From the IMG/VR virus record IMGVR_UViG_3300045015_000053: a stretch of DNA of 64,000 bases. One strand, 5' to 3'. The notes below the pieces were generated by a model. The model was not told where the DNA came from. It was given only the letters and a program-made list of their open reading frames with translations, and did no database searches. Shown here in pieces: positions 3,180 through 64,000 of the stretch. The DNA comes from a virus. Lineage: Duplodnaviria; Caudoviricetes. A program made the position numbers and the translations under genes. The first letter of the stretch is position 1. The number at the start of each line of letters is the position of its first letter.

Positions 3180-3671
3180 ATGAAATACTACACCCCCGAA
3201 ATGGTCAACCGCTGGAACGGCGACAAGCTCGGTCTGAGACAGGCCGAGTTCGACGCCGAATGGGACAAGGCTCAGACCGAGTACGAGGAGCATTTCGCCA
3301 AGCTCAAGGATCTTCCGCTTTCCGTACAAAAACTGCACGACGGCGCGGTCCTTTATGGCGAGCGGCTGATCTCCCTTCCGAAGCCCGAAGGGTATCAACG
3401 CGGCGAAGACTTCGTGATCGTAACTGGCGACGAACGCGATGGTGTAAACCACATTTTGGTCTATACTGTCGAAAAGCCGCCGGTCGTGAGGGTTCACGAG
3501 GGGGTCGGGTTCGACCCCGCAACCACGCCCGGCGTCTGGCTTTACGACGAGTTCGGTGTCGATGCGGACGGTGCGTTCACGCACAATACGATCTTCACCA
3601 ACGGCATCGAAGTGGAAGTGACGTTCAAGTCGATGCACTGGATCGAGGCGGTCACACAGGAATCCGGGTGA
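3180..3671 (+). CDS. Hypothetical protein
   Basis: RBS AAGGAGG before ATG 3180; coupled to the next gene by TGATG. Confidence 0.7.
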   Translation: MKYYTPEMVNRWNGDKLGLRQAEFDAEWDKAQTEYEEHFAKLKDLPLSVQKLHDGAVLYGERLISLPKPEGYQRGEDFVIVTGDERDGVNHILVYTVEKPPVVRVHEGVGFDPATTPGVWLYDEFGVDADGAFTHNTIFTNGIEVEVTFKSMHWIEAVTQESG

Positions 3672-4036
3672 TGGAAACGAAACAGGTAATTCTGATTCGC
3701 CGCGACCTGAAAATGCGTCGGGGCAAAGAAATCGCGCAGGGGGGCCACGCTGCGTCGTCCTTCCTCGCCGAGATCGTCAGAACGGGCCGAGAGGTCACGC
3801 TCGCGGAACGGGCGTGGCTCGACGGGCTTTACAAGAAAGTCTGCTTGGTGGTCGAATCCGAAGCGGAACTCCGCGAACTACATGAGAAGGCACAGGCGGC
3901 GGGCCTGACCTCCCACATGATTTTGGATTCGGGTCTGACGGAGTTCGGCGGCGTGCCTACACCGACATCGTGCGCCATCGGGCCAGCCGAGGAAAGTGCG
4001 GTGAACGCGATCACCGGCCACCTGAAGCTTTACTGA
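3671..4036 (+). CDS. pth2: Peptidyl-tRNA hydrolase, Pth2 type
   Basis: KQVILIRRDLKMRRGKEIAQGGHA, KKVCLVV, DSGLTE and TSCAIGP are Pth2 family motifs. Confidence 0.92.
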   Translation: METKQVILIRRDLKMRRGKEIAQGGHAASSFLAEIVRTGREVTLAERAWLDGLYKKVCLVVESEAELRELHEKAQAAGLTSHMILDSGLTEFGGVPTPTSCAIGPAEESAVNAITGHLKLY

Positions 4037-4943: not shown

Positions 4944-4984
4944 GTTGAGGGAAAGGGACCAGAGCTATGCTCTAGGGGGAAATT

Positions 4985-5680
4985 ATGGGTGCTTTAGCTC
5001 AGAAGAAGGTGTTGGTACTGAACAAGCACAGCGTTGCTGTCGGCGTGGTGTCGCTGCAACGCGCCATCATCATGTTGTTCTCATTCGACCCGAAAACCCT
5101 CAAGCCGAAGGCCGAGATCATTGACGAGGGGTGCCAGCCGTGGACCTGGGAGGAGTGGGCGTTGTTGCGCCCGGAGGACAACGAGGACGCAATAAACTCC
5201 TGTCAGGGTCGGTTCAAGATTCCTGAGATCATCAAGCTGTCGAAGTACGACAAGATGCCACAGCATCAGATCCACTTCAGCCGCCGGATGATCCACAAGC
5301 GTGACGGTAGCCAGTGCATGTACTGTCGCGCCCGGCCGGGAACCGAGGAACTGACCATCGACCACATCATTCCACGCTCGAAGGGTGGCTTGACGACGTG
5401 GGAGAACTGTGTCCTCGCCTGCGTGCCGTGCAACAGCAACAAGGCCAACCGGATGCCCGACCGCACGACCGTCGTTGACCACGTCAAGGACGATCACGGC
5501 AAGCTGAAGGAAGTACACGTTCCGGCCTTCACCGTGTACTTCAACGACAAGACCCGGAAGACCATCCGGCAGCCGAAGAAGCCCAACTTCGAGGTCTTCC
5601 GTGGGGAGATCCCATACAAGTCTTGGGCGCAGTGGCTCAACGTGGCCTACTGGAACGTCGAGCTAGAAAACGACAACTAA
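4985..5680 (+). CDS. HNH endonuclease (McrA-like)
   Basis: CMYC..LTIDHIIPRSKGGLTTWENCVLACVPCNSNK. Confidence 0.9.
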   Translation: MGALAQKKVLVLNKHSVAVGVVSLQRAIIMLFSFDPKTLKPKAEIIDEGCQPWTWEEWALLRPEDNEDAINSCQGRFKIPEIIKLSKYDKMPQHQIHFSRRMIHKRDGSQCMYCRARPGTEELTIDHIIPRSKGGLTTWENCVLACVPCNSNKANRMPDRTTVVDHVKDDHGKLKEVHVPAFTVYFNDKTRKTIRQPKKPNFEVFRGEIPYKSWAQWLNVAYWNVELENDN

Positions 5681-6669: not shown

Positions 6670-7448
6670 ATGTCGAAGAAAAACCAATCAGCGAGGTGGC
6701 TTTGACCCTGTAAAGGGTCAGGAAACCCATTCCCAGGCTGCCTCCTGGCTTTGACCACGCCAACGAAATCATCCTCGAAGTCCTTTATGGCGAGGGTGGT
6801 ACTGACTCGAAACTCTTCGTCACCGATCTCGGCGATCTCTACGTCAAATATGCCGCCCGCAAGGGTCTGGCGTGTGAGCTTTTGACCGAAGACGACGGAC
6901 ACGTCACCTTCAAGATCAAAGGCAAGAAAGCCGCGTGGCACTTCCGTCACGAGGCAGGCAAGCACTGCGTTCAGCGGGTTCCCCCGACCGAGCGTAACGG
7001 CCGGCGTCAAACGAGCTTCGTGAACGTCGCTATCCTGCCGATCCTTCCTGAGTACACGAAAGTGACACTCAGGGACAACGACCTCGAAGAGAAGTTCCAG
7101 ACTGGGCGTCAAAAGGCCGGGGGCCAAAACGCGAACAAAGTCGCTTCCGCCGTGCGACTGAAGCACAAGCCGACCGGCCTCTGCGTGTTCATCAACGGCC
7201 GCGATCAGGGGCAGAACCGCGAGGAAGCTCGCCGCATCCTGACGGCCAAAGTGAACCAGCAGAAGATCGAGAAGGAACGCGCGGCCGAGGTCGGGATGAG
7301 GGAAGACTTCCTGAAGAATCGCGGACGCGGGGACAAGATCAGGACGTACAACTTCATCATCAACGAGGTGACGGACCACCGACTGGATCGTTCTTCCAAG
7401 AACATCAAGGCGGTGATGAAGGGCGATCTGGACGAAGTCATCGGATAA
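6670..7448 (+). CDS. prfA: Class I peptide chain release factor (RF1-like, lacks domain 1), joined by two +1 frameshifts at 6700-6706 and 6749-6755
   Basis: GGQ motif (KAGGQNANK), RF1-type VQRVPPTE loop, IRTYNF. RBS GGAGG plus ATG 6670 reaches the RF frame only via two CTT-TGA-C sites; predicted 258 aa. Confidence 0.85.
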
Positions 7449-7880: not shown

Positions 7881-8591
7881 ATGCCTACCAAAACCGAATA
7901 CCAGAAACGCAAACAAAACAATCTCTGTTTACGTTGTGGTAAAACGCCATTGGATTCCAAAAACGTTTGTCAAAAGTGCATAGACAAGGCGATGGCGAAG
8001 TATGCCGCAAAAAAACAAGCAAAAGTTTGTGTAAATTGTAGTCGGCCCGCTCCAAATGGAGCCAGATGTGTCGAGTGCGCAAAGGTCCACAAAAAAGTTG
8101 CAGATCGAAGACGGATTACAAAAAGAAAAACATCAATTTGTTTGATTTGCCCGACTCAAACAAATGGCTCTGCCTATTGTGATTCTTGTTTGGCGAAGAA
8201 TAGGGCCAAGTGTCGCCGGAAGCGAGAATCGGGATTGTGTCGCAATTGTTCCAAAAAGGCTATTCCGGGGAAAGCAAGATGTGAAGAATGCACGCAGACA
8301 AATCGCGAGAGCATTCTCAGACTCAGGGATAAAGTGTTCGCTGCGTATGGAGGGGCAAGATGTAATTGTTGTGGAGAAACGACAGTAGAGTTTTTGGCAT
8401 TAGATCACATAAACAACGATGGTGCCGAACACAGACGAAGTTTGCGTGAGAACAGCGTCTATCGTTGGGTTAGTAAAAACGGGTTCCCTGCCGGTTTTCA
8501 GGTACTGTGCCACAATTGCAATTGGGGCAAACATATTTGTGGTGGAGTCTGCCCACATCAGAGGAAAATTCATGTCGAACATCATCAATGA
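7881..8591 (+). mobile_element. Free-standing HNH (homing-type) endonuclease gene with tandem Zn-ribbons
   Basis: AT-rich island; repeated CxxC..C units; C-terminal CNCCGE..LALDHINNDG..VLCHNCN. Confidence 0.75.
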
Positions 8592-10683
8592 TCTGGTCCA
8601 GAAGAAACTTGCTCACCCACCTGCGTGGCTTAGTTCCAATACCCATTATCTAACGATGATGGGTTCGGTGGCCTACGGGGTGAGCAGCGACACGTCCGAC
8701 ATGGACCTGTACGGCTTTTGTCTGCCGCCGAAGGAAATCGTCTTCCCGCACTTGTCGGGGGAGATTTTCGGTTTCGGCACGCAGAAGAAGCGGTTCAACC
8801 AGTGGCAGCAGCACCACATCAAAGACCCGTGTGCGATGCAAGGGAAGGGACGGCAGTATGACCTCACGGTCTACAACGTGGTGGATTACTTCAATCTGTT
8901 GATGCAGAACAACCCCAACATGATTGACAGTATTTTCACGCCCGACAACTGCGTGTTGCACATCACGCGGATCGGCACGATGGTTCGCGAGAAGCGACGG
9001 ATGTTCCTCCACAAGAAGTGTTGGCACACCTTCAAGGGGTACGCCTACGCTCAGATGAAGAAGATCCGCAACAAGGAGCGTGAGTCTTCGTCGCGGCGCG
9101 ACCTGATCGAGAAGTACGGGTACGACTGCTATCTTGATTCCGAAACTGAATTTCTTACTGAAGCCGGCTGGAAGAAGTACGACGATGTGGAGGCCGACGA
9201 TTCTCTGGCAGTGGTAGATCCGTCAACGGGGAAGATCGGATGGGAAAATTACACCGAACGCATCGACAAGCCTTTCTCCGGTCCCATGTACGTCGTAGAA
9301 CCGGCGATGAGCAGGTGTGTGGTTACGCCCAATCACCACATGCTCGTTTCACCCGCACGTCGCTCGGAGGCGACTAACTTTTCATACCGTTATTTCGAGG
9401 ATAAAGCGGACTGGAATTTGGTTCCTTTCTCAACCCTTATGACTGGATCGAGGTCGTGGTTTCACACACGTCGCCGTGTGGAAGGCAACTGCTTCGACTA
9501 TTCCGGTGTCACCGACGAGTATTTGGTTTTGGCCGGTCTGTATATTGCCGAAGGCACCATCAACTTCAGGGATGGCAAGGTCAAGACCGCAAGACTGACC
9601 CAGACGCCGAATGGGAAGCAAGAGTTTTTCGAGATGGCTGATCGTATTGCTAGTGCCTTCGACATGAAGCGATACGACTACGACAAGGAAACAGTCTGGA
9701 CCGTTGAGCGTGCTACCGCCGAAAAACTCTATACGGATTTCGGACATGGTTCTGGTAGCAAGAGGCTCCCTCTGTGGTGTTACAAGTTGTCCGAACGACA
9801 GGCTTCCATTCTTTGGAAGAATGCCTGTCTCGGAGACGGAACTCCTACGCCAAACGGCGAAGTCTACTACACCAGTAACGCTGCACTTGCTGGCGATGTG
9901 CAGGCTATGTTAACATGCGCCGGCGTACTGTGTTCTGTACGCGGGCCTTACAGTTACGAGCGAAACGATGAATGCTTCGGTAACTGTGACATGTATCAGG
10001 TGTATCGGCCTTCGGACCAGTACGCCTACTCCTGCGTAGATTTCAAGAACAGGATTCAGAAATCCGATGATGAGGCGACTGAGGTGACGGGCGATGTTCG
10101 TGTTGATGGCCTCCGTCATTTCACAGAAGATGACGACCCCAAAACAAGCTGGCCCATCAAGGAACGTATTGTTCAAGAAGAACGCATCGTGTGTTTCCAA
10201 GTCCCATCGGGAACTTTGATCACTCGAAGTAAGGGCCGAGTCGCCCTGCATGGCAATACGAAGTTCGCATACCACCTTGTTCGTCTGATGAACGAAGTGG
10301 AACAGATCATGGTCGAACACGACCTCGATCTGATGCGGAACCGCGAACAGTTGAAGCAGATCCGCGCCGGGTGCTGGACCGAGGAGCAACTTGAGGACTA
10401 CTTCGCCAAGAAGGAAGTATCCCTCGAAGAGACGTACAACAAGAGCGATCTCCGTTGGGGACCGGACGAGCCGGCCATCAAGGAACTGCTCCTGAACGTG
10501 CTGGAAGAACACTACGGCAACCTCGACAAGTGCGTCATCCGTCAGGACGCGGTCGTGACTGCCCTCCGCAACGTGATCGGCGCGGCTGATGAAGCCCGCC
10601 GCGTACTGGAGCAGATCACATATGAAGAACCTGCTGAGGCGGGCGGCGAACAGTCTGAACAGGCTGTGGCACCGACTGAGTGA
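8572..10683 (+). CDS. Nucleotidyltransferase (pol-beta superfamily, phage type) containing an intein
   Basis: GSVAYGVSSDTSDMD and NNPNMID motifs; extein junction KYGYD/TKFAYH; RBS GAGGAA before ATG 8572. Confidence 0.85.
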   Translation: MSNIINDLVQKKLAHPPAWLSSNTHYLTMMGSVAYGVSSDTSDMDLYGFCLPPKEIVFPHLSGEIFGFGTQKKRFNQWQQHHIKDPCAMQGKGRQYDLTVYNVVDYFNLLMQNNPNMIDSIFTPDNCVLHITRIGTMVREKRRMFLHKKCWHTFKGYAYAQMKKIRNKERESSSRRDLIEKYGYDCYLDSETEFLTEAGWKKYDDVEADDSLAVVDPSTGKIGWENYTERIDKPFSGPMYVVEPAMSRCVVTPNHHMLVSPARRSEATNFSYRYFEDKADWNLVPFSTLMTGSRSWFHTRRRVEGNCFDYSGVTDEYLVLAGLYIAEGTINFRDGKVKTARLTQTPNGKQEFFEMADRIASAFDMKRYDYDKETVWTVERATAEKLYTDFGHGSGSKRLPLWCYKLSERQASILWKNACLGDGTPTPNGEVYYTSNAALAGDVQAMLTCAGVLCSVRGPYSYERNDECFGNCDMYQVYRPSDQYAYSCVDFKNRIQKSDDEATEVTGDVRVDGLRHFTEDDDPKTSWPIKERIVQEERIVCFQVPSGTLITRSKGRVALHGNTKFAYHLVRLMNEVEQIMVEHDLDLMRNREQLKQIRAGCWTEEQLEDYFAKKEVSLEETYNKSDLRWGPDEPAIKELLLNVLEEHYGNLDKCVIRQDAVVTALRNVIGAADEARRVLEQITYEEPAEAGGEQSEQAVAPTE
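9127..10257 (+). mobile_element. Intein (377 aa) with LAGLIDADG-type endonuclease
   Basis: Starts CYLDSETEFLT, block B VTPNHHM, ends ALHGN before Thr; LAGLYIAEG and CLGDG motifs; lower GC. Confidence 0.9.
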
Positions 10684-27012: not shown

Positions 27013-28593
27013 ATGGGCCTCAAACTCGACAAGAACGAATTCCCTGCCAATCACGTCGCCGAAGACTTCCAGTGCTTCGGCCCGCCCGCTCTGAAGGACG
27101 GCGAGTTCGACACCGTGAAGATCGCCGACCTCGGCTGTTTCACCCAAGACGGCAAGGACAGCAACAAGTATTACCACTGCGCTGTAGTCAAGTCTCGCAA
27201 GACCGGCGAGTGGGGCGTCTACAAAGAGTGGGCGCGTACCGGCTCCAAGAATCCGAACTTTCAGTTCGTGATGTGTTCGAGCGAAGCCGAAGCCCAACGC
27301 GAATTTGCCTCCCAACTTCACGAGAAAAACGACCGTCGCGGCGAGTGGACCGTCGTCGGCGGCATCCGCGTCCTCCGCGCCAAAGCGGGCAAGGATTGCT
27401 ACCTCGTTCGCGCACAAGCGACCCGTTCAACCGGACTGCCCGACGCCAAGTGCATCAAGGCCAACGACGGCGCACCCAAGCCCGTGGCGGAAGCCAAAAA
27501 GACGGACGCTGCCCCGACAACTGCCAAGCGGCGTTCGGACACTCATACCCTTTCGTTGCTCCGCGATTTGGGGCAGGCGACGGTGAGCTACACCCGTGGC
27601 AGCATGGCCGACAGCAGCCTGCCGACCCAGACCGCCATTGACGAGGCGCGGAGCTTCCTCGGCGAAGCCAAGAAGCGGCTGAAGGTAGTCGGTCCCAACG
27701 AAGATGATCAGGTGAAGGACAAGGCTCTCGTTGACTTGACGAGTCTCATGTACGGTCGCATCCCGAAAAAGAAGGCTCTGCACTGCCCGCCGAAGGACTG
27801 GATTCTCAGTGCCGGCAACATCGGCGCGTGGGAACTCGACCTCGATGCCTTCGAGTCGGCTCTCCACACCGAGCAACAGACGGAACAACAGGTTTCCGAC
27901 CCGCTCGACGGCCAACCGTTCTTCCTCGAATGGATGGACCCGAAGTCGAAGGAAGGGGACTGGCTGTACAAGTGGTGGCCGAACGCCACCCGCAACCGCC
28001 ACGGTCACGTCGGCTCGATGAAGATCAAAAACCTCTGGCGGGTCGAACGTTTCGGCGACCGCGACCTGATCGAGAAGTCGCAGACCGCGATCCTCAAGAG
28101 TAAGTTCTCGATCACCGAGAGGGCTTTGCACCAGCCGAAAGAACGCGCGGACCTCGCCGAGAAGGACTTCCAGCGGTATCGGGACACGAACACCGCGATG
28201 TTGTTCCACGGCACGCGGCGGGTGAACGTGACGGGCATCCTCCGCGAGATGCTGCGGTTGCCGAAGCATCTGGTGGGCGTCGTGATCACCGGGGCCATGT
28301 TCGGCGGCGGCTGTTACTGGGCCGACGACTGGAAGAAGTCTGCCGGCTACACGGACGGCGGCTACTACGACCGGGGCGGCAGCGGCGGCAATCGCGGGTG
28401 CTTCATGTTCGTCGGGGACGTAGTTCTCGGCAACCCGTGGGTCGCGCCGTCGAGCGGCGGCTACACCGGCCCGCCGAAGGGCCACCACTGCATCTTCGGC
28501 AAGGCCGGACACAGCGGCGTCCAGAACAACGAGTGGATCACCTTCGAGCGGAACCACATGGAACTCCGCTACCTCGCCGAGTTCACCAGTTGA
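27013..28593 (+). CDS. PARP-like ADP-ribosyltransferase with WGR-like N-terminal domain
   Basis: EWAR.G; catalytic H-Y-E pattern MLFHGT, GCYWAD..KSAGY, NNEW. Confidence 0.85.
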   Translation: MGLKLDKNEFPANHVAEDFQCFGPPALKDGEFDTVKIADLGCFTQDGKDSNKYYHCAVVKSRKTGEWGVYKEWARTGSKNPNFQFVMCSSEAEAQREFASQLHEKNDRRGEWTVVGGIRVLRAKAGKDCYLVRAQATRSTGLPDAKCIKANDGAPKPVAEAKKTDAAPTTAKRRSDTHTLSLLRDLGQATVSYTRGSMADSSLPTQTAIDEARSFLGEAKKRLKVVGPNEDDQVKDKALVDLTSLMYGRIPKKKALHCPPKDWILSAGNIGAWELDLDAFESALHTEQQTEQQVSDPLDGQPFFLEWMDPKSKEGDWLYKWWPNATRNRHGHVGSMKIKNLWRVERFGDRDLIEKSQTAILKSKFSITERALHQPKERADLAEKDFQRYRDTNTAMLFHGTRRVNVTGILREMLRLPKHLVGVVITGAMFGGGCYWADDWKKSAGYTDGGYYDRGGSGGNRGCFMFVGDVVLGNPWVAPSSGGYTGPPKGHHCIFGKAGHSGVQNNEWITFERNHMELRYLAEFTS

Positions 28594-50124: not shown

Positions 50125-51051
50125 TAGTGTTCTTGTTCTGGACGACGTTATCTATGTTGTCTTTCAGATGGAGGAGGAATTCTTTCTGCTTGCCGTTTTT
50201 GATCGCCAAGTTCAAAGAAGCAAGAAGCTCCAGGGCGTCTTTGCTGTATTGTTCTTTGTTTTTCATCGCGTGTTTCAAGACTTCGCCCAGATTGTCTTCG
50301 GTAGCCAACTCCCCGGTCAGCCTCGCGTAGTCCCTCTTCAAAGCGGCCAGACGGACACCGATCTCTTCAAAATCGAAATAATAGTTCTCCGTATCCGAAG
50401 CCTTCTTCCCTCCGAGGACGCCGCCGGCCGCGAAGCTCATCATCCTGTCCTGGGTGGAGTGTGACAGTTCGTGAGCCAGAGTGTGGATTTTGCTAACGTC
50501 GGACACAACGCAGTATTTCTGCGATTTGCCGTTTACTGTCACAACGCCACAGAATCCGTTGACCTGTTTCTTCCCCGCGTTAGAGTTCCATCCGGCCTTT
50601 TGGAAAATTCGTTGGGATCAATTCCGACAACAACTGGCACCGGCTTGTCCAGTAGTTTCGCGTCCATCGCCGTCCCGTCGAGCCGAAAGGTTTGTTTGGA
50701 CGCGCGGTCTACCGAAGCCTTGTATAGCTTGTCGTTACCATAAAGGGGTTGGATTATTTGTGATGGGGTAATCATCTTGATGTTGTTTCTGCCGATGTTG
50801 ACATGCGGGTACTCTTTCTTCAAAGCGACAAGTATGTAATCGACTTCTTGCTCCCCGCTTTTCACCATTTGTTGTTTCGGTTCGGCAGATTGTTGTGCTT
50901 GAGGTGCGTGAGGTGACAGAGACATACCCAAACCCGTCGCTCCCAGTGTCGCAAGTCTGGCAGCGTTTTTGAAAAAACCCTCTTCAAGCGTGAAGTACTC
51001 TAAAGTAATTTCCGCGTTGACGAATTTGCTGAACTCTTTGGCACCTATCAC
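50105..51051 (-). CDS. HExxH metallopeptidase-like protein split by a 1-nt frame break near 50604-50607
   Basis: Two track ORFs join into GIDPNEFFQKAGW..TLAHELSH if one base is added; AT-rich. Confidence 0.55.
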
Positions 51052-54000
51052 TCTTCTCCTCCCGGCGGTCGATACCCAGGCTGGCCCTTCAGCTTCACGA
51101 TGTGCAGTTGGTCCATAGCCCGCGTGTAGGCGACGTAGCGTGCGTTCTCCTCTTGGAGTTTGTCGGCTTCCTTCGTGGCTCGCGGGTGCGGGAACTGGTC
51201 GTCACGCAGAATGTAGACGCGAGAGAACTCCAAGCCCTTCGACTTGTGAGCCGTCGTCAACACCACCGGGTGTTCCTTCTTCACCTTCTCGTTGAATGCT
51301 CTCAGGTCGGCCTCGTTGTCCTGAACGTCGAAACCGCCCAGGCGAGCCTTGAGCCACTTCTTGAAGTCTTTGACGGTCGGCATCGGTTTGGCCGCGACCG
51401 CCCGCATCATCGCGTCGTGCGCCCGGTCGTCCATCTCCTCCACGTCACGCGACATCCCGGTGAACGCCGCCAGTGCGGAGTAAAGAGCTTCCGAGGTGGC
51501 GTTCATTTCCTGTAGGTACGCCTTCTTGGAGTTCATCGAACTGAACCGCTCGTTTTCTTTCTTCTGGTACTCTTCGAGCTTCACGCCGAGGTTCGGCCGA
51601 CCGCCCGCTCGCGGGTGCGGGATCGCCGGGGAATCGTCCCTCATCTTGGCCCCCTTCAAGACCTTGCCGATGTGACGCATCAATTCGTTTGACACGTCGC
51701 GACCCACGATGATGAACGGCACGCCGTCGCCCAACATCTTCAACGCGGCCTGAACCAGCGGTTCGTTGGTACGGGCGATGAACGCCGTTTCCGGCATTTT
51801 CGGCCCGCCCTTTTTCGAGTCCTCGTGTTCCTTCTTGAGCGTGGTGAAGACCTCGCCATATTCCTTGTCTTGGTTTGTGACTTCGCCACCACCGCCGTTC
51901 GGGTACTTGCTCTCACTGTGTTTGAGGCCGGTAACGTGGCCCATGTTGTTGACGTGGTCGAGAATGCCCTTCCGCGAGCGGTAGTTCGTCGTCAGCGTGT
52001 GTTCCGTGTCCTTGTCGCCCGAAAGCTCTTTCAGGGTCCGGCCGAGGCTGTGGAAGGCGTCACCGTCAGCGCCACGGAAGCGGTAAATGGCTTGGTTCGG
52101 GTCGCCTACCGCCACGATCTTCGCGCCGGCACCGTGCAACTTCTCCAGCATCAGCTTTTGGCACGGGTTGAAGTCCTGCACCTCGTCGGCGAGGACCACG
52201 TCGTAGTGCGGCCAGTGCATGTCGTGGGCGTTGATCGCGGCGAACCAGATGTCGTCCGAGAAGTCGCGCATGCTGCCCAGGTCGTATTCCATGCCCTTGA
52301 AACTGAGGGTCTGCGTCGTTCCCTTCGGCAGACTAGCCTTCAGCAGCCACTCGGCTGCCTCAGCGATCTCGTCCTTAAAGTTCTTGCCCATGAAGTCGAA
52401 GCCGTAGACCTTCTTCAGAGCGGCCAGAACTTCCGTGACCATGCTGCTCGAACGGTACTTCCTGATGCGTTCTTTGATTTCGGCCAGCCCGGTATCGAGG
52501 TCGTAACCCTTGAACAGCTTTTCGAGTTCGGCCTTGACGTGGTTGCCGTCTTTTCGCGGATCGACGCCGTAAGCTTTCGCCAAGTCAGCGACCTTCTGCG
52601 AGACTTCCTTGAACATATAGCGGATGGAGTGTGCGCAGCTTTTCGCGGCCGTCGTTGAGTATTCCCCAATCGGCATCTTCTCGATGATGGCGTCGGCGGT
52701 CGCGTCTTCAACGATGCCTAGTTTCTTCAGCACCTCGTTGAACTGCGATCCGTCCACGATTTCGCCCATTTTGCTTCGCGGCATCGGCGACTTTTCTTCC
52801 TCGTCCTCGTCTTCCGAAGCCTTGTTCCGCTTCTTGTTGAGTACCTCGATCATCCGCTCGGTCTGGTCGATCCGGCTGACATTCTCGTTCGACTTCAGCA
52901 AGTTGCCGAGGAAGCCGTTCGTGGTGCGAACGTCAACCCAGGAGGTTGGGAACTTCTCTTGAGCCTCGACCTTGTTCTTGGTGTTGAACACCAGATACAG
53001 CCAGCGTTCGCCCGGCTTGCCGTATTTCCACGCCAAGTGCTTCAACATCGTCGTGTTGTGTGTTACGACGCAGTTTTCTGTGACGTACAAGTTGTCTTTC
53101 GCGTCAACCGCAATGCATTGACACGGTTTTTTGCCAATCGAAGTGATTGACTTGATGACCCTAGACGGCTGATACTTTGTTTTGGGAGTGTACTTCTCCT
53201 GTTTCCTTTTCAAAGAAAAGGGATTGCCAGAGATTTTGATGTACACTCGGTAGCAAGGCTTGCCTGATTTTTTGACCCCTTTGTATGTGTAACTCGTTTT
53301 CTTGTGGGTGATTTTCCCGGTTCCGCCCAGTGACTCAACGAGGAATTTAATGTCTTTGGCAAGACGATACGAAGCGGTAGGGTAGAAAATCGTGTGGGTT
53401 CCGACTTCTCCATCTGTGTCGAGAAGTCCGCTCAACACTTTCGCTCTTGTCTCAACTGTATTGAATTTGTAAATGTCTGGAACAAATTTATTGTCGGACC
53501 CCATTCTCCACAAGCCTAGTTTTTTGATCTCTGCCACAATTTCGTTCTTCCGGCCTTTGATGCCGCTTGAAATACGATAATCGCAGCCATATCCTGTCGG
53601 CCGGCTTTTCAAAGCAGGAGGCAGTAACCGATCAACGCTTTCGACTATTTCTTTGTCTTCCGATGAGTAGGACACGCAGCCGGTTCTGAAACTCCCGTCA
53701 CCCAGAAGCACGCCCATTAAATACGGATCAATGATTGTCAGTTGCGAAGCAAACTCGACGTTTTCGACCATTGGAACATAGTGTTTTGGTTGTTTTCTGT
53801 AGAGCAAATCGCCAGCAATTTCTTTGGTAGTTAGGACTTTGCCATAAGAGAAAAGAGGTATTCCCTTTTGTTGACAGTAGACTCTTTCTCGTTTGCATTC
53901 TGTCAGCCAAAGGTGATCTTCAGAGCATTCCACAATGGACCCGTCCATAAATCCGACTTCGACCACTTCTTGCATCCCTTGAGGGAAGACTCCAATAACT

Positions 54001-55019
54001 TTGTGTGGTTTGCCGTCACGTCCAATGACCAGATTATTGACTTTAATGTCGCCCATCCTGATCCAGCCTTTTGGGGTCAAGATTTTGGAATCAAGTGGTT
54101 GAGCTTTGCCCGACCCGGCCAGAGCGTTGATCATCATGTGATCCTGGCTCTTGCTGGACATCATCTGCTCGAACCGCGCGTCGATCCGTCGCTGTTCGTC
54201 CGACAATTTCTCGTGTTCGAGGACGTGCTTTTTCTTGTCCGCGTCGTTCGGCTTGCCCTTCGACAACTTGCCCTCGACCAAATCGTGCAACTCGGCCAGA
54301 CTCGGCGCGGAGTAGATGCTCTTGCCGTCATCCTGTTTGACCGACTGCACCACGTTCGGGAGGTCGGACTTGGTAGTCGCGGCCATACGCTGGCCGCCGA
54401 ACGTCCAGATCTCCCAAGCGCCGTTCTCGGCCTCGACAACGCCCACGTCTTCGTCGGCCTTGATCGTTTCGATGTCCTGCTTGGTTTTGGCGTAGATCCA
54501 CTTCTGGCCCTTAGCAGGTGCGGCCGATGGCTTTGCTTGAGTTTGAGCTTGTTGTGGTTGTTGCGGCTGTGTGGCTCTGTGGGTGGCGGCGACTTGTCGG
54601 AGAGCTTCGATGGAGTCGGCCATTACCGGGGTGTTCCCGTCGCGGACGGACTTGACGTAGTTCGCCAGTTCTTTTTCAGACACGAAGGCGCGGGCGTTCG
54701 TGTCGAGGTGGACGACTTCCCACGTCCCTTCACGGGGTTTTGAAACGCCCACGTCATCGCCGGCCTTCAATTGACCGACCGGCTTGATGATTCGACTGTA
54801 GATCCAGCGACCCGTGGGCTGTTTGTTGGTTTCCAAGAGGCACCTTGAGAGGATTTCGTCCTGAATTTCCAGATAAAATGCGTCACCCAGGTCGCTGCGG
54901 TGGTAGTTTTCAGCGATCCATTTTAGGTCGGAAACTGACGTTTCGCTGCCGAAATAGAAGTTCTTGTAGAACCGCGAGCGGCATTCTGAAACGAGCCAGT
55001 TTTTGAAGTCGAGTTTCAT
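51048..55019 (-). CDS. UvrD/Rep superfamily 1 helicase with intein and N-terminal extension
   Basis: ALAGSGK/TT, LVFN, DEVQD, VGDPNQAIYRFRGA, NYRS, ARTN, TAHKSKGLEF, YVAYTRA. Confidence 0.9.
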   Translation of the reverse strand: MKLDFKNWLVSECRSRFYKNFYFGSETSVSDLKWIAENYHRSDLGDAFYLEIQDEILSRCLLETNKQPTGRWIYSRIIKPVGQLKAGDDVGVSKPREGTWEVVHLDTNARAFVSEKELANYVKSVRDGNTPVMADSIEALRQVAATHRATQPQQPQQAQTQAKPSAAPAKGQKWIYAKTKQDIETIKADEDVGVVEAENGAWEIWTFGGQRMAATTKSDLPNVVQSVKQDDGKSIYSAPSLAELHDLVEGKLSKGKPNDADKKKHVLEHEKLSDEQRRIDARFEQMMSSKSQDHMMINALAGSGKAQPLDSKILTPKGWIRMGDIKVNNLVIGRDGKPHKVIGVFPQGMQEVVEVGFMDGSIVECSEDHLWLTECKRERVYCQQKGIPLFSYGKVLTTKEIAGDLLYRKQPKHYVPMVENVEFASQLTIIDPYLMGVLLGDGSFRTGCVSYSSEDKEIVESVDRLLPPALKSRPTGYGCDYRISSGIKGRKNEIVAEIKKLGLWRMGSDNKFVPDIYKFNTVETRAKVLSGLLDTDGEVGTHTIFYPTASYRLAKDIKFLVESLGGTGKITHKKTSYTYKGVKKSGKPCYRVYIKISGNPFSLKRKQEKYTPKTKYQPSRVIKSITSIGKKPCQCIAVDAKDNLYVTENCVVTHNTTMLKHLAWKYGKPGERWLYLVFNTKNKVEAQEKFPTSWVDVRTTNGFLGNLLKSNENVSRIDQTERMIEVLNKKRNKASEDEDEEEKSPMPRSKMGEIVDGSQFNEVLKKLGIVEDATADAIIEKMPIGEYSTTAAKSCAHSIRYMFKEVSQKVADLAKAYGVDPRKDGNHVKAELEKLFKGYDLDTGLAEIKERIRKYRSSSMVTEVLAALKKVYGFDFMGKNFKDEIAEAAEWLLKASLPKGTTQTLSFKGMEYDLGSMRDFSDDIWFAAINAHDMHWPHYDVVLADEVQDFNPCQKLMLEKLHGAGAKIVAVGDPNQAIYRFRGADGDAFHSLGRTLKELSGDKDTEHTLTTNYRSRKGILDHVNNMGHVTGLKHSESKYPNGGGGEVTNQDKEYGEVFTTLKKEHEDSKKGGPKMPETAFIARTNEPLVQAALKMLGDGVPFIIVGRDVSNELMRHIGKVLKGAKMRDDSPAIPHPRAGGRPNLGVKLEEYQKKENERFSSMNSKKAYLQEMNATSEALYSALAAFTGMSRDVEEMDDRAHDAMMRAVAAKPMPTVKDFKKWLKARLGGFDVQDNEADLRAFNEKVKKEHPVVLTTAHKSKGLEFSRVYILRDDQFPHPRATKEADKLQEENARYVAYTRAMDQLHIVKLKGQPGYRPPGGEE
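53055..54104 (-). mobile_element. Intein (350 aa, Ala1 start) in Walker A, with LAGLIDADG endonuclease
   Basis: GK|AQPLDSKILT..CSEDHLW..GVLLGDG..SGLLDTDG..VTHN|TT; AT-rich. Confidence 0.92.
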
Positions 55020-55150
55020 GTTGTCCTTGTTCTGCTTTCCCATCACGGTTATGTAGTTACGCGGAACCGAACTCAAACTGGCAGTTTTTCGATCTCGGCA
55101 TTGTCACAATCGAGCGTTTCGGTTACGCTTTCTCGAAACGGAGGTTTACG

Positions 55151-58193: not shown

Positions 58194-58385
58194 ATGGACG
58201 AACTCATCAAGGCGGCAGACATCGTTACCACCGTTCTCTGGAACGAGATGGAGCGAAACGAACTGTCGCCTGACAAGCCCACGCTGGAACGGGTCAATCG
58301 AATCGGACCAAACACGACCGAAATCGAGATCCGGTTCCCCGGCCGCAAGTTCAAGAAGTTCGTGCTGACTATTGACCCGCAATAG
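58194..58385 (+). CDS. Small hypothetical protein
   Basis: Ends TAG 7 nt before the tRNA. Confidence 0.6.
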   Translation: MDELIKAADIVTTVLWNEMERNELSPDKPTLERVNRIGPNTTEIEIRFPGRKFKKFVLTIDPQ

Positions 58386-58392
58386 CCAACCC

Positions 58393-58463
58393 CCACCTTT
58401 GGGCCAGTGGCTGGCCAGCGATCTCTAAAATCGCGCACATCGGTTCGATTCCGATAAGGTGGG
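58393..58463 (+). tRNA. tRNA with CUA anticodon (amber suppressor type), CCA not encoded
   Basis: Acceptor CCACCTT/AAGGTGG, U8, D stem GGCC/GGCC with GG, anticodon stem GCGAT/ATCGC, loop CT-CTA-AA, T arm ATCGG-TTCGATT-CCGAT. Confidence 0.9.
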
Positions 58464-58501
58464 CTGAATCTAAAACAAAATTTGCATTGGTCAGAACGAC
58501 A

Positions 58502-58529
58502 ATCGGTTCGATCCCCACAAGGTGGGCTG
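58502..58529 (+). repeat. Degenerate duplicate of the tRNA 3' end
   Basis: 25/28 identical to 58439-58466. Confidence 0.8.
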
Positions 58530-58542
58530 GAGGAAAACAAAA

Positions 58543-59100
58543 ATGAACGCTAATGATCTCGTCAACGTATTGTCCGGCACGACCACTCGCAGGGGCTTCC
58601 TCGCCGAGACAATGGGTGTTGTGACCGCTCCGTTCTTCGCCACTGACAACCTGCTGGCGGATGTCCCTCTCGTTCAGGAACACATCGTCGCCCGCGCCGA
58701 CCGCCCGAACGGGAACAAACGGATCTACCCGCTCTCCGTGCTGCAAAGAGTTGTCGCAGATTCGGCCGACGCGGTCGCGCACAGACAGATGATCGGTCAG
58801 TTGGGGATGCCCGCCGACAGCATCATCCACTTCAGTCAGGCGAGCCACATTGTTAGGTCGCTCAAACTGAGTGACTTCGGCCCGCAGATCGGGTGGCAGT
58901 TGATCGCCGAAATCGAACTGCTCGCCACCCCCTGCGGCGTCATCCTGAAGAAGCTGTTGGCATCGCCCGGACAGGTGGCGTTCAGGACGGCCGGGGTGGG
59001 CCACGGCAAGATCAACGATGACGGCATTCTGGTGATTGACGATTCTTACAAGCTGGTCGGCGTTCACGCTGTTCCGGCAAAAGACGCCGTGTGGATTTGA
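58543..59100 (+). CDS. T4 gp21-like prohead protease homolog with a twin-arginine-like N-terminus
   Basis: NGNKRIYP..VL, GQLG.P, ASH, ATPCG.ILK, GVG; N-terminal TRRGFL. Confidence 0.65.
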   Translation: MNANDLVNVLSGTTTRRGFLAETMGVVTAPFFATDNLLADVPLVQEHIVARADRPNGNKRIYPLSVLQRVVADSADAVAHRQMIGQLGMPADSIIHFSQASHIVRSLKLSDFGPQIGWQLIAEIELLATPCGVILKKLLASPGQVAFRTAGVGHGKINDDGILVIDDSYKLVGVHAVPAKDAVWI

Positions 59101-63035: not shown

Positions 63036-63983
63036 TCAGTCCGAATCGGCGATCACGACCCACGCATTGTGGGTCGTGTCCCATTTCGGCAGTTCGGCGA
63101 TGCCACTCTGTTCGTAGCCGAAGCTGATCTTGAAGTCGTCCCCGTACCGGCCTTTGGTCTTGGTGTTAACCTTGCCCATGAGCCGGACATTTCTTTTCAT
63201 GTACTCCGAATACCCGTAGTTGCTTATGCCATTGTAAAAATCATCGATGTAGTCAGGTACGTCGAGTTCGATCACGCCCTGGCTCCAGCCGTGGTATTGC
63301 ACCATCGCTCTGTCGCCGTCCCGCATCAGTTTCGGCCATTTTACATCGGCCATAAACCGTTTCACGAATTGCGGTTTGGTCATCTTTGTTTCGTCGGCCA
63401 GATCTTCGTGTACTTCCGGTGGTTGGAACTCGGCCATCGCCTCTGCCACTTCGGGTTCGCGTAGGAAGTCGATCTTCTGGGCCTTCTCGCCACGCAGTTT
63501 GTTGATGGCGTCTTTCATCTCGTCAACTTTGCCGCCCATCCTCTGAACCCACTCCTTGATCACCTCGGCCATAACCGCCGCGAAGATCTTGTCGGCGATG
63601 TTGTCGTAGCCGTTCGCGAGGCCGGCGACGAACCGCTTGGTCCCTTCCGCCCAAGCCGCACTGCCCACGTCGTCAAAGAGTTCTCCGTCAACCTCGAAGA
63701 CGGCGTCAATGATCGCTTCCGTCGTCTCGTCGTCCAGTTCTTCTTTTTCTTTGAGGTGCTTCCGCAGTTCTTCCATGTGCTTGTTGACTTCGAGGACGTA
63801 AGCCGCTGTTTTACCGGCACGCCACACCTTCGACCCACCCGACACAGCCCCGGATACGATCTTCCAGATACTTGTTGCCGCGCCTACAACGTTGCCCGTC
63901 GCCGCACTAGCCGCCAACCCGGTGACGCCTTTGGCGAGGCTCCAGGCGTCACCTGCGGCACCGGCCACGTCTTTGTTCCTCAT
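63036..63983 (-). CDS. Hypothetical protein, probably 5'-truncated by the window edge
   Basis: Ala/Gly-rich N-terminal helix; long ORF. Confidence 0.65.
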   Translation of the reverse strand: MRNKDVAGAAGDAWSLAKGVTGLAASAATGNVVGAATSIWKIVSGAVSGGSKVWRAGKTAAYVLEVNKHMEELRKHLKEKEELDDETTEAIIDAVFEVDGELFDDVGSAAWAEGTKRFVAGLANGYDNIADKIFAAVMAEVIKEWVQRMGGKVDEMKDAINKLRGEKAQKIDFLREPEVAEAMAEFQPPEVHEDLADETKMTKPQFVKRFMADVKWPKLMRDGDRAMVQYHGWSQGVIELDVPDYIDDFYNGISNYGYSEYMKRNVRLMGKVNTKTKGRYGDDFKISFGYEQSGIAELPKWDTTHNAWVVIADSD

Positions 63984-64000
63984 CGCGTGTGCGGTCGCCA

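What the first reader, a model, noticed from the sequence alone, without database searches (positions are those of the whole stretch)
58393..58463. Amber-reading tRNA(CUA) in a genome that still stops at TAG
Seen: a fully paired 71-nt cloverleaf with anticodon CTA (58425-58427), C1-G72, G73 and no encoded CCA. No conserved gene here needs TAG as sense, and 11 called genes end in TAG. Known: CUA tRNAs occur in TAG-recoded phages, usually with RF2 rather than RF1. Inference: conditional amber suppression opposed by the phage's own RF1-like factor, which is itself gated by UGA sensing. Together they could form a stop-codon switch during infection. The charged amino acid cannot be assigned from sequence alone.
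Basis: partly seen in the sequence, partly recalled or inferred. Interest (0 to 1): 0.8.

Follow-up and report, generated by a model that had tools for sequence, protein, structure and literature searches.

The report
Phage amber tRNA with stop-gated partner gene
This is a real amber-suppressor tRNA of a huge lake-water phage that otherwise stops at TAG, and it belongs to a two-part module seen in many jumbo phages: a suppressor tRNA plus a peptidyl-tRNA-hydrolase-like gene that opens with an in-frame stop codon matching that tRNA.

Summary
Positions 58393-58463 hold a canonical cloverleaf tRNA with anticodon CUA (ARAGORN; Rfam 53.9 bits). Independent lake metagenomes carry the identical sequence. 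In 149.5 kb of this phage, TAG ends 23 of 234 genes, and reading TAG as sense adds no coding density, so the code is standard.

A conserved gene does need TAG read through. It lies 5.6 kb past the window end, has a Pth2 (peptidyl-tRNA hydrolase) fold, and begins ATG, nine codons, TAG, then Val. Four lineages keep this layout, with synonymous changes on both sides of the TAG.

The same family is TAG-gated (ATG, 1-10 codons, TAG) in eight genomes that also carry a tRNA(CUA). These include the cultured phages CBB, BF, RsoM2USA and ME3. One contig has a TGA-gated copy 13 nt after a tRNA(UCA).

My best reading is that the tRNA's dedicated target is this gene, whose output reports the balance between suppressor and RF1. 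The phage's RF1-like gene is real, but CBB-like, Ralstonia and Xanthomonas phages did not appear among its hits. The inserted amino acid is unresolved.

Earlier notes of this scan on this same genome (not on other DNA) had flagged the Pth2 TAG. I tested and extended that lead.

The parts
58393..58463 (+). tRNA with anticodon CUA (amber suppressor). Canonical class I cloverleaf, C1-G72, G73, anticodon loop CUCUAAA, no encoded CCA.
   Evidence: ARAGORN; Rfam 53.9 bits; fold; identical in other runs; homologues with compensatory changes.
58425..58427 (+). Anticodon CTA.
58490..58526 (+). Remnant copy of the tRNA's 3' half (T arm, 3' acceptor strand, CTG, AAAACAAAA). It has no 5' half and its T stem is broken. 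It ends at the ribosome-binding site of gene 58543-59100.
   Evidence: Read from the sequence. ARAGORN and Rfam call nothing there.
58194..58385 (+). Small upstream gene (63 aa) ending in TAG 7 nt before the tRNA. The tRNA is probably co-transcribed with the flanking + strand genes.
   Evidence: Gene call. No promoter-like site directly upstream.
6671..7448 (+). RF1-like release factor gene lacking domain 1. It is read through two +1 frameshift sites, CTT TGA C at about 6700-6706 and 6749-6755.
   Evidence: Same layout in LR756511 with CTT TAA C then CTT TGA C.
3671..4036 (+). Second, canonical Pth2 gene (PF01981) with an ordinary start. It shows that the gated copy is a separate paralogue.
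   Evidence: Precomputed Pfam hit on L041 13097-13462; 19% identity to the gated copy.
63036..64000 (.). Window edge. The partner gene lies beyond it, at extended window coordinates 69646-70026 (L032 17346-17726, + strand), with its in-frame TAG at 69676-69678 (L032 17376-17378).

Best explanation
Positions 58393-58463 encode a functional amber-suppressor tRNA of a huge lake-water phage that otherwise uses the standard code. It is one half of a conserved two-gene module. The other half is a Pth2-fold (peptidyl-tRNA-hydrolase-like) gene 11.2 kb downstream on the same strand. [quoted passage not shown] Inferred mechanism: ribosomes start at the leader ATG and meet UAG at codon 11. RF1 (host or phage) terminates there, or the phage tRNA(CUA) decodes it and the full hydrolase is made. 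Hydrolase output would then track the ratio of suppressor activity to RF1 activity. The enzyme probably clears peptidyl-tRNA, either generally or on the suppressor itself, giving feed-forward housekeeping or negative feedback on readthrough. Shown: the tRNA, the standard code, the conserved in-frame stop, the match between stop type and anticodon, and the Pth2 fold. Inferred: that the tRNA is charged, which amino acid it carries (Gln, Lys and Trp are the candidates), that it reads this UAG, and what the hydrolase acts on.
For: The tRNA is real and under selection. It is confirmed. A 74%-identical homologue in another tRNA array (L053) keeps CUA through compensatory changes in the acceptor, anticodon and T stems. 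Across 11 phage suppressor tRNAs, 18 of 21 pairs show compensatory changes. Nine CUA tRNAs share the loop CUCUAAA. The code is standard: 234 genes in 149.5 kb have stops TGA 149, TAA 62 and TAG 23, and coding density is 0.8031 under code 11 against 0.8036 with TAG as sense, with a lower total score. The partner gene reads MKTQITAEHL-TAG-VSEENTPYCYLFLREDL. Three further lineages read MQTQLTANHL-TAG-V (L073), MQAELTAQHL-TAG-V (L074) and MNAQLTAEHL-TAG-V (L076). Synonymous differences occur on both sides of the TAG, and the Val codon is GTT, GTA, GTG or GTT, so it is kept as Val and not as a start codon. No ATG, GTG or TTG lies between the TAG and the codon for L24. The AlphaFold model (pLDDT 83.8) puts strand beta1 at residues 19-25, so a start at L24 would delete it. 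The top 15 fold matches, apart from 2gax at rank 13, are solved Pth2-family structures (probability 1.00, TM 0.6-0.7). Genomes with both a TAG-gated copy and a tRNA(CUA): this phage; JAWVGZ010000010.1; LR756511, MTH-TAG; LR756501, MS-TAG; Pectobacterium phage CBB, MAQ-TAG; Serratia phage BF, MTH-TAG; Ralstonia phage RsoM2USA, ML-TAG; and Acinetobacter phage ME3, MT-TAG, which has only about four tRNAs and keeps the CUA one about 0.4 kb upstream. In IMGVR_UViG_3300020202_000066 the gene reads MVFT-TGA and starts 13 nt after a tRNA(UCA). RaK2 has an ungated copy with its own ATG, and the pattern search found no CUA tRNA there. In the roughly 20 kb that could be compared with relatives, this was the only in-frame TAG conserved on a coding frame.
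Against: There is no expression, charging or proteomic data, and no RNA run holds this phage. In this phage the leader ATG has no clear Shine-Dalgarno sequence, although L074, LR756511, LR756501 and BF have one. In the TGA/UCA contig a GTG inside beta1 could serve as an alternative start. XacN1 has two CUA tRNAs per terminal repeat, but there the Pth2-like domain is fused to an N-terminal domain with no stop, so the tRNA must have other or additional roles in that phage. The Pfam PTH2 score of this copy is below the cut-off (20.3 against 23). A suppressor active enough to read this gene would also extend the 23 TAG-ended phage genes. I saw no backup-stop enrichment after TAG (median extension 28 codons against 24-24.5 for TGA and TAA). 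LR756500 has an MK-TAG leader, but the pattern search found no CUA tRNA there.
Confidence: 0.65

Rival explanations
1. Stop-codon switch with the phage RF1-like factor. The tRNA(CUA) and the frameshift-gated, domain-1-less RF1 act as opposing arms that set UAG termination during infection. The Pth2-like gene would be only one read-out.
For: This phage and LR756511 both carry the tRNA(CUA) and the RF1-like gene with two tandem +1 sites. The RF is RF1-type, with Q, PxT-like PPT, T and GGQ all present. This idea is compatible with the best explanation.
Against: The RF tblastn hit list contains no Pectobacterium, Serratia, Ralstonia or Xanthomonas phage, yet those carry the tRNA/Pth2-like pair, so the RF is not an obligatory partner. 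The frameshift sites are UGA (RF2-read) here and UAA plus UGA in LR756511, so they do not sense UAG.
Confidence: 0.15
2. General-purpose suppressor with no dedicated target. It would perturb host termination, buffer nonsense mutations, or be an early step towards TAG recoding in the sense of Borges et al. The TAG in the Pth2-like gene would be incidental.
For: Suppressor tRNAs are reported in standard-code relatives of recoded phages (bioRxiv 10.1101/2021.08.26.457843) and in XacN1, where the authors could not identify target genes (PMC5852040). XacN1's Pth2-like copy is ungated.
Against: TAG is not depleted here (10% of stops) or in LR756511 (20-24%), unlike the proposed pre-recoding state. 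The stop type in the leader follows the anticodon (TAG with CUA eight times, TGA with UCA once). The pair is adjacent in two genomes. ME3 keeps this tRNA among only about four tRNAs.
Confidence: 0.1
3. Leader mini-ORF with re-initiation. The 2-10 codon leader is a true upstream ORF that ends at the stop. The hydrolase is translated by re-initiation or from a non-canonical start just after it, without any suppressor.
For: Very short ORFs directly before a main ORF can couple translation. In L074 the codon after TAG is GTG, and in the UCA contig a GTG lies in beta1. Two-codon minigenes such as the lambda bar minigenes are linked to Pth biology (from my own knowledge).
Against: The codon after the stop is GTT, GTA, GTT, ATT or AAT in most lineages, which are not start codons. 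This model does not explain why the stop is TAG in eight genomes with tRNA(CUA) and TGA in the one with tRNA(UCA).
Confidence: 0.07
4. Partial code 15. Late, structural or lysis genes elsewhere in this genome of more than 290 kb use TAG as sense, and the tRNA serves them.
For: Only about 150 kb could be read, and no clear structural module was seen.
Against: There is no density gain under TAG=sense in any of the 149.5 kb, nor in 117 kb of LR756511. TAG stops occur in seven of the eight 20-kb bins; the last bin has none.
Confidence: 0.03

Closest known systems
CUA and UCA suppressor tRNAs of cultured standard-code jumbo phages (Xanthomonas phage XacN1, PMC5852040; Agrobacterium phage Atu_ph07, PMC6102473)
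   Same: A canonical suppressor tRNA in a large phage that still uses that stop codon to end genes. XacN1's tRNAs share the loop CUCUAAA.
   Different: [quoted passage not shown] Here a conserved stop-gated target gene is identified. In XacN1 itself the homologous domain is fused to another domain and ungated. Atu_ph07 was not tested.
Suppressor tRNAs of TAG-recoded (code 15) phages such as crAss-like and Lak phages (Borges et al., bioRxiv 10.1101/2021.08.26.457843)
   Same: A phage-encoded tRNA(CUA) read against host RF1, with the idea that decoding of a stop gates expression of particular genes.
   Different: Here the genome is not recoded and TAG is not depleted. At least one gene is gated rather than many late genes. 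The accompanying release factor is RF1-like, whereas Lak and Agate TAG-recoded phages carry RF2.
prfB (RF2) autoregulatory +1 frameshift
   Same: A stop codon placed early in an ORF acts as a sensor of termination capacity and so sets the output of a translation-factor gene. The phage's own RF gene uses CTT TGA C sites.
   Different: In the Pth2-like gene the event is in-frame readthrough by a dedicated tRNA, not a frameshift. The product is a hydrolase, not the factor that reads the stop.
Archaeal and eukaryotic peptidyl-tRNA hydrolase Pth2 (PF01981; structures 1xty, 3erj, 1q7s)
   Same: Same fold. The motifs VQxxHA and EPD...TA(L)xTxP are conserved across the family alignment.
   Different: 12-22% identity to solved members. 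The Pfam score is under the cut-off for this copy. It is a separate paralogue from the phage's canonical Pth2 at 3671-4036. Its substrate is unknown.
Programmed stop-codon readthrough (Q-beta A1 protein at UGA; MuLV gag-pol at UAG). This comparison is from my own knowledge.
   Same: One conserved in-frame stop must be decoded to make the full product.
   Different: Those systems rely on host near-cognate tRNAs and extend a C-terminus. Here the virus brings a cognate suppressor, and the stop sits at codons 3-11, so nothing functional is made without readthrough.

Membership tests
tRNA (Rfam RF00005) | Cloverleaf with a 7-bp acceptor, 4-bp D stem, 5-bp anticodon stem and 5-bp T stem; U8, A14, G18-G19, U33 and a GTTCRA T loop; score above the gathering threshold. 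| tested here: met
   53.9 bits against a threshold of 29; ARAGORN; minimum-free-energy cloverleaf.
Amber suppressor tRNA | Anticodon CUA at positions 34-36 of a 7-nt loop. | tested here: met
   Loop CUCUAAA at 58423-58429, unchanged in other samples.
Amber suppressor tRNA | At least one gene in the same genome needs UAG decoded. | tested here: met
   The Pth2-like gene has a conserved in-frame TAG at codon 11 and a stop that matches the anticodon across genomes. This is comparative evidence only.
Amber suppressor tRNA | The tRNA is expressed, CCA-tailed, aminoacylated, and inserts an amino acid at UAG. | not testable with these tools
   No RNA runs hold this phage.
tRNA-Pyl (ARAGORN's label) | Short D loop, one base between the acceptor and D stems, 6-bp anticodon stem, 3-nt variable loop (features recalled from my own knowledge). 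| tested here: not met
   This tRNA has two connector bases (U8 G9), a 7-nt D loop, a 5-bp anticodon stem and a 4-nt variable loop. ARAGORN assigns the label from the anticodon alone. pylS and pylBCD were not searched for.
tRNA-Gln-derived suppressor (supE-like) | Paralogy to the phage's or host's tRNA-Gln; a weak 1-72 pair (U1-A72). | tested here: not met
   At most 62% identity to any of 48 other tRNAs of this phage, including four Gln. It has C1-G72 instead of U1-A72. Being charged with Gln is not excluded.
TAG-recoded (code 15) phage | Higher coding density and less gene fragmentation when TAG is read as sense; TAG rare as a terminator. | tested here: not met
   Density 0.8031 against 0.8036, with a lower score; TAG ends 23 of 234 genes.
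Pth2 (PF01981), for the partner gene | Pth2 alpha/beta fold. | tested here: met
   The top fold matches are almost all Pth2-family structures, probability 1.00, TM 0.6-0.7. Model pLDDT 83.8.
Pth2 (PF01981), for the partner gene | Pfam score above the gathering cut-off. | tested here: inconclusive
   20.3 bits against a cut-off of 23 for this copy. Homologues P0006, P0007, P0008 and P0012 carry precomputed PF01981 hits.
Class I release factor RF1 (context gene 6671-7448) | Four domains including N-terminal domain 1; PxT and GGQ motifs; equivalog score. | tested here: not met
   It matches prfA positions 104-335 only, with 205 bits against a cut-off of 400. Domain 1 is absent. PPT and GGQ are present. 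It is RF1-like, not a full RF1.

The most novel reading that the evidence does not exclude
The suppressor tRNA and the stop-gated Pth2-like hydrolase form a self-regulating circuit carried by many jumbo and huge phages. Readthrough of the leader stop measures suppressor activity against host RF activity. The hydrolase made in response acts on the suppressor's own aminoacyl- or peptidyl-tRNA, or on the drop-off products of readthrough. The phage would thereby hold stop-codon readthrough in the infected cell at a set level. This would be a portable, autoregulated device for altering the genetic code.
Probability: 0.25. Interest if true: 0.9.

Novelty: new variant of a known kind. Interest (0 to 1): 0.8.

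Why it matters
Suppressor tRNAs in standard-code jumbo phages have been reported without any known target (XacN1, Atu_ph07). This analysis gives them a concrete, conserved target. It is a peptidyl-tRNA-hydrolase-like gene whose first few codons include a stop matched to the phage's suppressor anticodon.

The idea is directly testable in cultured phages (CBB, BF, RsoM2USA, ME3). It also explains why this gene is truncated or missing in their annotations. It points to a way of sensing or tuning termination that differs from whole-genome recoding.

If the hydrolase acts on the suppressor, this would be a natural, self-limiting stop-codon suppression system. That would interest work on genetic-code expansion. 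The four searches of the paper library that I ran turned up no description of this pairing, but they were limited.

Tried and rejected
1. Identity by paralogy. The tRNA is at most 62% identical to any of 48 other tRNAs of this phage and to 61 tRNAs of LR756511, so no parent isotype can be named.

2. Identity from the acceptor end. Homologous CUA tRNAs carry C1-G72 or G1-C72, and G73 or A73, so there is no common acceptor identity. RsoM2USA shares C1-G72 and G73 with the window tRNA.

3. D-arm searches. The exact D arm recurs in a tRNA(UCA) in IMG/VR and in a tRNA-Pro(UGG) on a 691-kb scaffold. I considered a Trp or Pro origin, but the evidence is too thin.

4. Readthrough fusions at TAG-ended genes. 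Three of 11 are in frame with the next gene (30156, 32712, 39191), which is what chance gives. Pfam found no domain spanning the junctions.

5. Backup stops after TAG. They are not enriched.

6. Near-identical DNA in phage databases. Megablast found none, and only T-arm matches appeared for the tRNA.

7. Related loci via the 667-aa protein in viral contigs. None were found.

8. Whole-genome access. No genome is held for this window, and the Logan, JGI and NCBI contigs cannot be searched as records.

9. RNA evidence. No RNA run holds this phage.

10. A second TGA/UCA example. None turned up in the phage collection with the UCA contig's protein as query.

11. Other explanations considered and dropped. 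An att-site explanation for the 3'-half remnant was dropped because the two copies lie too close together.
Full report
**1. The observation**

ARAGORN finds exactly one tRNA in the 64-kb window, at 58393-58464 on the + strand, with anticodon cta. A focused Rfam scan scores it 53.9 bits against the tRNA model, E=4e-11, where the gathering score is 29. The whole-window gathering scan had missed it, which is a filter artefact.

The minimum-free-energy fold is the cloverleaf at -29.7 kcal/mol, and none of 200 shuffles folds as well. Read from the sequence, the parts are:
- acceptor CCACCTT/AAGGTGG (C1-G72), then U8 G9;
- D arm GGCC-AGTGGCT-GGCC;
- anticodon arm GCGAT-CTCTAAA-ATCGC;
- a 4-nt variable loop and T arm ATCGG-TTCGATT-CCGAT;
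- G73, followed by CTG, so CCA is not encoded.

ARAGORN's label 'Pyl' comes from the anticodon alone. The structure has none of the tRNA-Pyl peculiarities. Contigs from three further lake-water runs cover the gene without a single difference, so the anticodon is not an assembly error.

**2. What the genome is, and which code it uses**

The window is 57% G+C and densely coded on the + strand. It encodes ParB-like, ClpX-like, PARP/WGR and RlaP proteins, a UvrD-type helicase with LAGLIDADG matches, an RF-like protein and others.

It has no near-identical relative in the phage collection. It occurs on contigs of up to 0.2-1 Mb from lake-water metagenomes.

By walking along a 182.5-kb contig and a 169-kb contig I read 149.5 kb in all, from window coordinate -76455 to +73035. 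This stretch holds 49 distinct tRNAs, EF-Tu, Ro60, SmpB and more. It is a huge phage of the kind described from metagenomes.

A self-trained codon model genes, with stops TGA 149, TAA 62 and TAG 23, and TAG stops occur in seven of the eight 20-kb bins. Treating TAG as sense changes coding density from 0.8031 to 0.8036 and lowers the total score. Treating TGA as sense wrecks the gene calling.

In the window, 11 of 90 genes end in TAG. The in-frame extensions after TAG are no shorter or longer than after TGA or TAA. Three of the 11 are in frame with the next gene, which is the chance expectation, and no Pfam domain spans those junctions.

**3. Is the tRNA a working gene?**

A pattern search that fixed only the D arm, the loop letters CT...AA and the T loop found a homologue in the tRNA array of another phage (L053 and L054). 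It is 74% identical and keeps CUA and the loop CUCUAAA.

It differs by paired changes in the acceptor stem (1-72 and 4-69), the anticodon stem (28-42, 29-41, 30-40) and the T stem (49-65, 50-64). More CUA tRNAs turned up in relatives and in cultured jumbo phages.

In an alignment of 11 phage suppressor tRNAs, 18 of 21 base pairs show compensatory changes. Nine CUA tRNAs share the loop CUCUAAA. This is the signature of selection on a functioning tRNA that keeps a stop-reading anticodon, not of a decayed copy.

**4. Which amino acid?**

This is unresolved. The tRNA is at most 62% identical to any other tRNA of its own phage. The class I shape excludes bacterial Leu, Ser and Tyr.

Sense anticodons one change away from CUA that fit the shape are Gln, Glu, Lys and Trp. 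G73 and the loop (CUCCAAA in this phage's Trp tRNAs) fit Trp. From my own knowledge of E. coli identity rules, U35 with G73 attracts GlnRS and U35 with A73 attracts LysRS.

Homologues vary at 1-72 and at 73: G73 in this phage, LR756511, RsoM2USA and XacN1b; A73 in L053, L073, CBB and XacN1a. There is therefore no shared acceptor identity. My rough odds are Gln 35%, Lys 20%, Trp 20%, other 25%.

**5. The partner gene**

Earlier notes of this scan (e1-5377876, e1-5377889) had flagged a Pth2-like gene just past the window end with an in-frame TAG. I tested this lead.

The gene lies at L032 17346-17726, which is extended window coordinates 69646-70026. It reads ATG AAG ACT CAG ATC ACT GCC GAA CAC CTG TAG GTT TCT ..., that is MKTQITAEHL-TAG-VSEENTPYCYLFLREDLP.... 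No ATG, GTG or TTG lies between the TAG and the TTG that encodes L24.

An AlphaFold model built on 14 sequences (pLDDT 83.8) places strand beta1 at residues 19-25, so a start at L24 would delete it. The top 15 structural matches, apart from 2gax at rank 13, are Pth2-family structures, with probability 1.00 and TM 0.6-0.7. The Pfam PTH2 match of this copy is just under the cut-off. The phage also has a canonical Pth2 at 3671-4036.

Three diverged relatives, at 71-77% protein identity, have the same layout:
- MQTQLTANHL-TAG-VATDTPSYCYLFM (586-kb contig JAWVGZ010000010.1);
- MQAELTAQHL-TAG-VSEDRTPYCYLFV, with a GGAGG Shine-Dalgarno sequence;
- MNAQLTAEHL-TAG-VSPDQTPYCYLFM.

Synonymous differences occur on both sides of the TAG (CTG/CTC, ACT/ACC, GCC/GCT, CTC/CTT, TTC/TTT). 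The codon after TAG is GTT, GTA, GTG or GTT, so it is conserved as valine and not as a start codon. Both flanks are therefore translated in one frame, and the TAG itself never varies.

Gene callers truncated these proteins to 'MRDDLS...'. The 586-kb contig also has a tRNA(CUA) 9 kb upstream of the gene, mirroring the 11.2 kb in this phage. A systematic comparison of every TAG-containing frame with the relatives found no other conserved in-frame TAG on a coding frame.

**6. The pattern generalises, and the stop follows the anticodon**

Genomes with a TAG-gated copy and a tRNA(CUA):

| Genome | Leader | tRNA(CUA) position |
|---|---|---|
| This phage | MKTQITAEHL-TAG | 11.2 kb upstream |
| JAWVGZ010000010.1 | MQTQLTANHL-TAG | 9 kb upstream |
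| LR756511 (595 kb, 41% identical) | MTH-TAG-VETPYLYCFVRKDL, after AAGGAG | 8 kb upstream, same strand |
| LR756501 (735 kb) | MS-TAG, plus a second internal TAG | two copies, 2.3 kb away |
| Pectobacterium phage CBB | MAQ-TAG | 3.7 kb downstream |
| Serratia phage BF | MTH-TAG | 3.4 kb downstream |
| Ralstonia phage RsoM2USA | ML-TAG | present; C1-G72 and G73 as in the window |
| Acinetobacter phage ME3 | MT-TAG | about 0.4 kb upstream; one of only about four tRNAs |

In these cultured phages the deposited annotation either truncates the gene or has none.

The most telling case is contig IMGVR_UViG_3300020202_000066. It has a tRNA with anticodon UCA and the same D arm as the window tRNA. Thirteen bases after that tRNA comes AGGAGG-N6-ATG GTC TTC ACG TGA ATC ..., that is MVFT-TGA-ISDPAYVYVLVRSDL. 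There the gating stop is TGA, not TAG. That stretch otherwise uses TGA as its commonest stop.

Two kinds of copy are ungated. RaK2 has its own ATG, and the pattern search found no CUA tRNA there. XacN1, Xoo-sp13 and RAS14 have the domain fused to an N-terminal domain without any stop, although XacN1 does carry CUA tRNAs. LR756500 has an MK-TAG leader, but my pattern search found no CUA tRNA.

**7. How it most likely works**

Shown:
- a selected suppressor tRNA;
- a standard-code genome;
- a Pth2-fold gene whose only usable start lies before a strictly conserved in-frame stop;
- a match between stop type and anticodon across nine genomes;
- adjacency of the two genes in two of them.

Inferred: ribosomes that start at the leader ATG reach the stop within 2-11 codons. 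A release factor ends translation there, or the phage suppressor decodes the stop and the hydrolase is made. Hydrolase output would then report the balance of suppressor to release factor.

A Pth2-type enzyme cleaves the ester bond of peptidyl-tRNA. It could clear drop-off and rescue products that readthrough creates, which would be feed-forward housekeeping. Alternatively it could act on the suppressor's own acylated form, which would be negative feedback.

The two- to four-codon leaders resemble the minigenes that provoke peptidyl-tRNA drop-off (from my own knowledge of the lambda bar minigenes). This resemblance may be part of the logic, but it is speculation.

**8. The release factor**

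The RF-like gene at 6671-7448 is RF1-type (prfA 205 bits against prfB 160). Its best solved match is T. maritima RF1, with VQRVPPTE aligned to VQRVPVTE, and GGQ is present. It lacks domain 1.

Its reading frame needs two +1 shifts at CTT TGA C. LR756511 has the same layout, with CTT TAA C and then CTT TGA C.

However, a tblastn of the RF listed no Pectobacterium, Serratia, Ralstonia or Xanthomonas phages, and those carry the tRNA/Pth2-like pair. The RF is therefore not a required part of the module.

**9. Comparison with what is known**

Suppressor tRNAs are well known in TAG- or TGA-recoded phages, usually with RF2 in TAG-recoded ones, and are occasionally noted in standard-code relatives.

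[quoted passage not shown] Atu_ph07 has a UCA suppressor and two Pth genes, with no link drawn between them.

My searches of the paper library found no description of a stop-gated Pth2-like gene paired with a suppressor tRNA. These searches were limited. I rate the tRNA itself as a new member of a known kind, and the module as a new variant: a cognate, virus-encoded suppressor with a dedicated, conserved, stop-gated target in an unrecoded genome.

**10. Limits**

Everything about function is comparative. No RNA or protein data exist for this phage. Only about half of the genome could be read, so partial recoding elsewhere is not fully excluded. The TGA/UCA case is a single contig, and it has a possible internal GTG start. 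The amino acid is unknown. The leader of this phage lacks a clear Shine-Dalgarno sequence.

Noticed in passing
window 6671-7448: The RF1-like gene lacks domain 1 and is read through two tandem prfB-type +1 sites (CTT TGA C twice). LR756511 has the same layout, but its first site is CTT TAA C. This fits an RF that senses both its own (UAA) and RF2's (UGA) activity.
   Followed up: partly
window 58490-58526: A remnant copy of the tRNA's 3' half and its trailing CTG...AAAACAAAA lies directly before the ribosome-binding site of gene 58543-59100. It looks like a decayed tandem duplicate.
   Followed up: partly
window 28912, 30156, 39191 and 32059: The motif CGCA(A/G)T(T/C)TCGGAGAC directly follows three of the eleven TAG stops and one TGACGG. 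Two of these TAGs are in frame with the next gene. It could be a promoter or regulatory site, or a context for readthrough or termination.
   Followed up: partly
window 4967-4975 (before HNH gene 4985-5680) and extended coordinate about -28113: Two more leaders of the form SD-ATG-CTN-TAG ('ML-TAG') lie in frame with a downstream ORF. This is the same leader as in RsoM2USA's Pth2-like gene. They may be further amber-gated genes, or chance.
   Followed up: partly
L116 (LR756501 687883-688743) and L117 (LR756500 111235-112107): LR756501's Pth2-like gene has a second in-frame TAG inside the domain. In LR756500 the next gene downstream also begins MK-TAG-I. Gating may extend to other genes in those phages.
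   Followed up: no
L088 1469-1544 and 1552-1627 (XacN1): XacN1's two tandem CUA tRNAs share an identical body but have different acceptor stems and discriminators (A73 against G73). This hints that they insert two different amino acids.
   Followed up: no
window 51048-55043 (-) and 8572-10683 (+): The UvrD-type helicase and the RlaP-like protein both carry LAGLIDADG matches in mid-protein. They are probably inteins.
   Followed up: no
window 27013-28593: A 526-aa protein with WGR and PARP catalytic domains in a phage.
   Followed up: no
L064 (JACPUT010000006.1, 691-kb scaffold of an 'Acidobacteria' MAG): The scaffold carries an array of 15 or more tRNAs within 2.2 kb, including a tRNA-Pro(UGG) with exactly the window tRNA's D arm. 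It may be a huge phage binned as a bacterium.
   Followed up: no
window, whole: The default Rfam gathering scan of the whole window returned no hit, although the tRNA scores 53.9 bits when a 300-nt stretch is scanned. An empty whole-window Rfam scan does not rule out a tRNA here.
   Followed up: yes
window between 11200 and 52300: The window differs by a 1-nt indel from the 182.5-kb Logan contig that otherwise matches it exactly. The position was not located.
   Followed up: no
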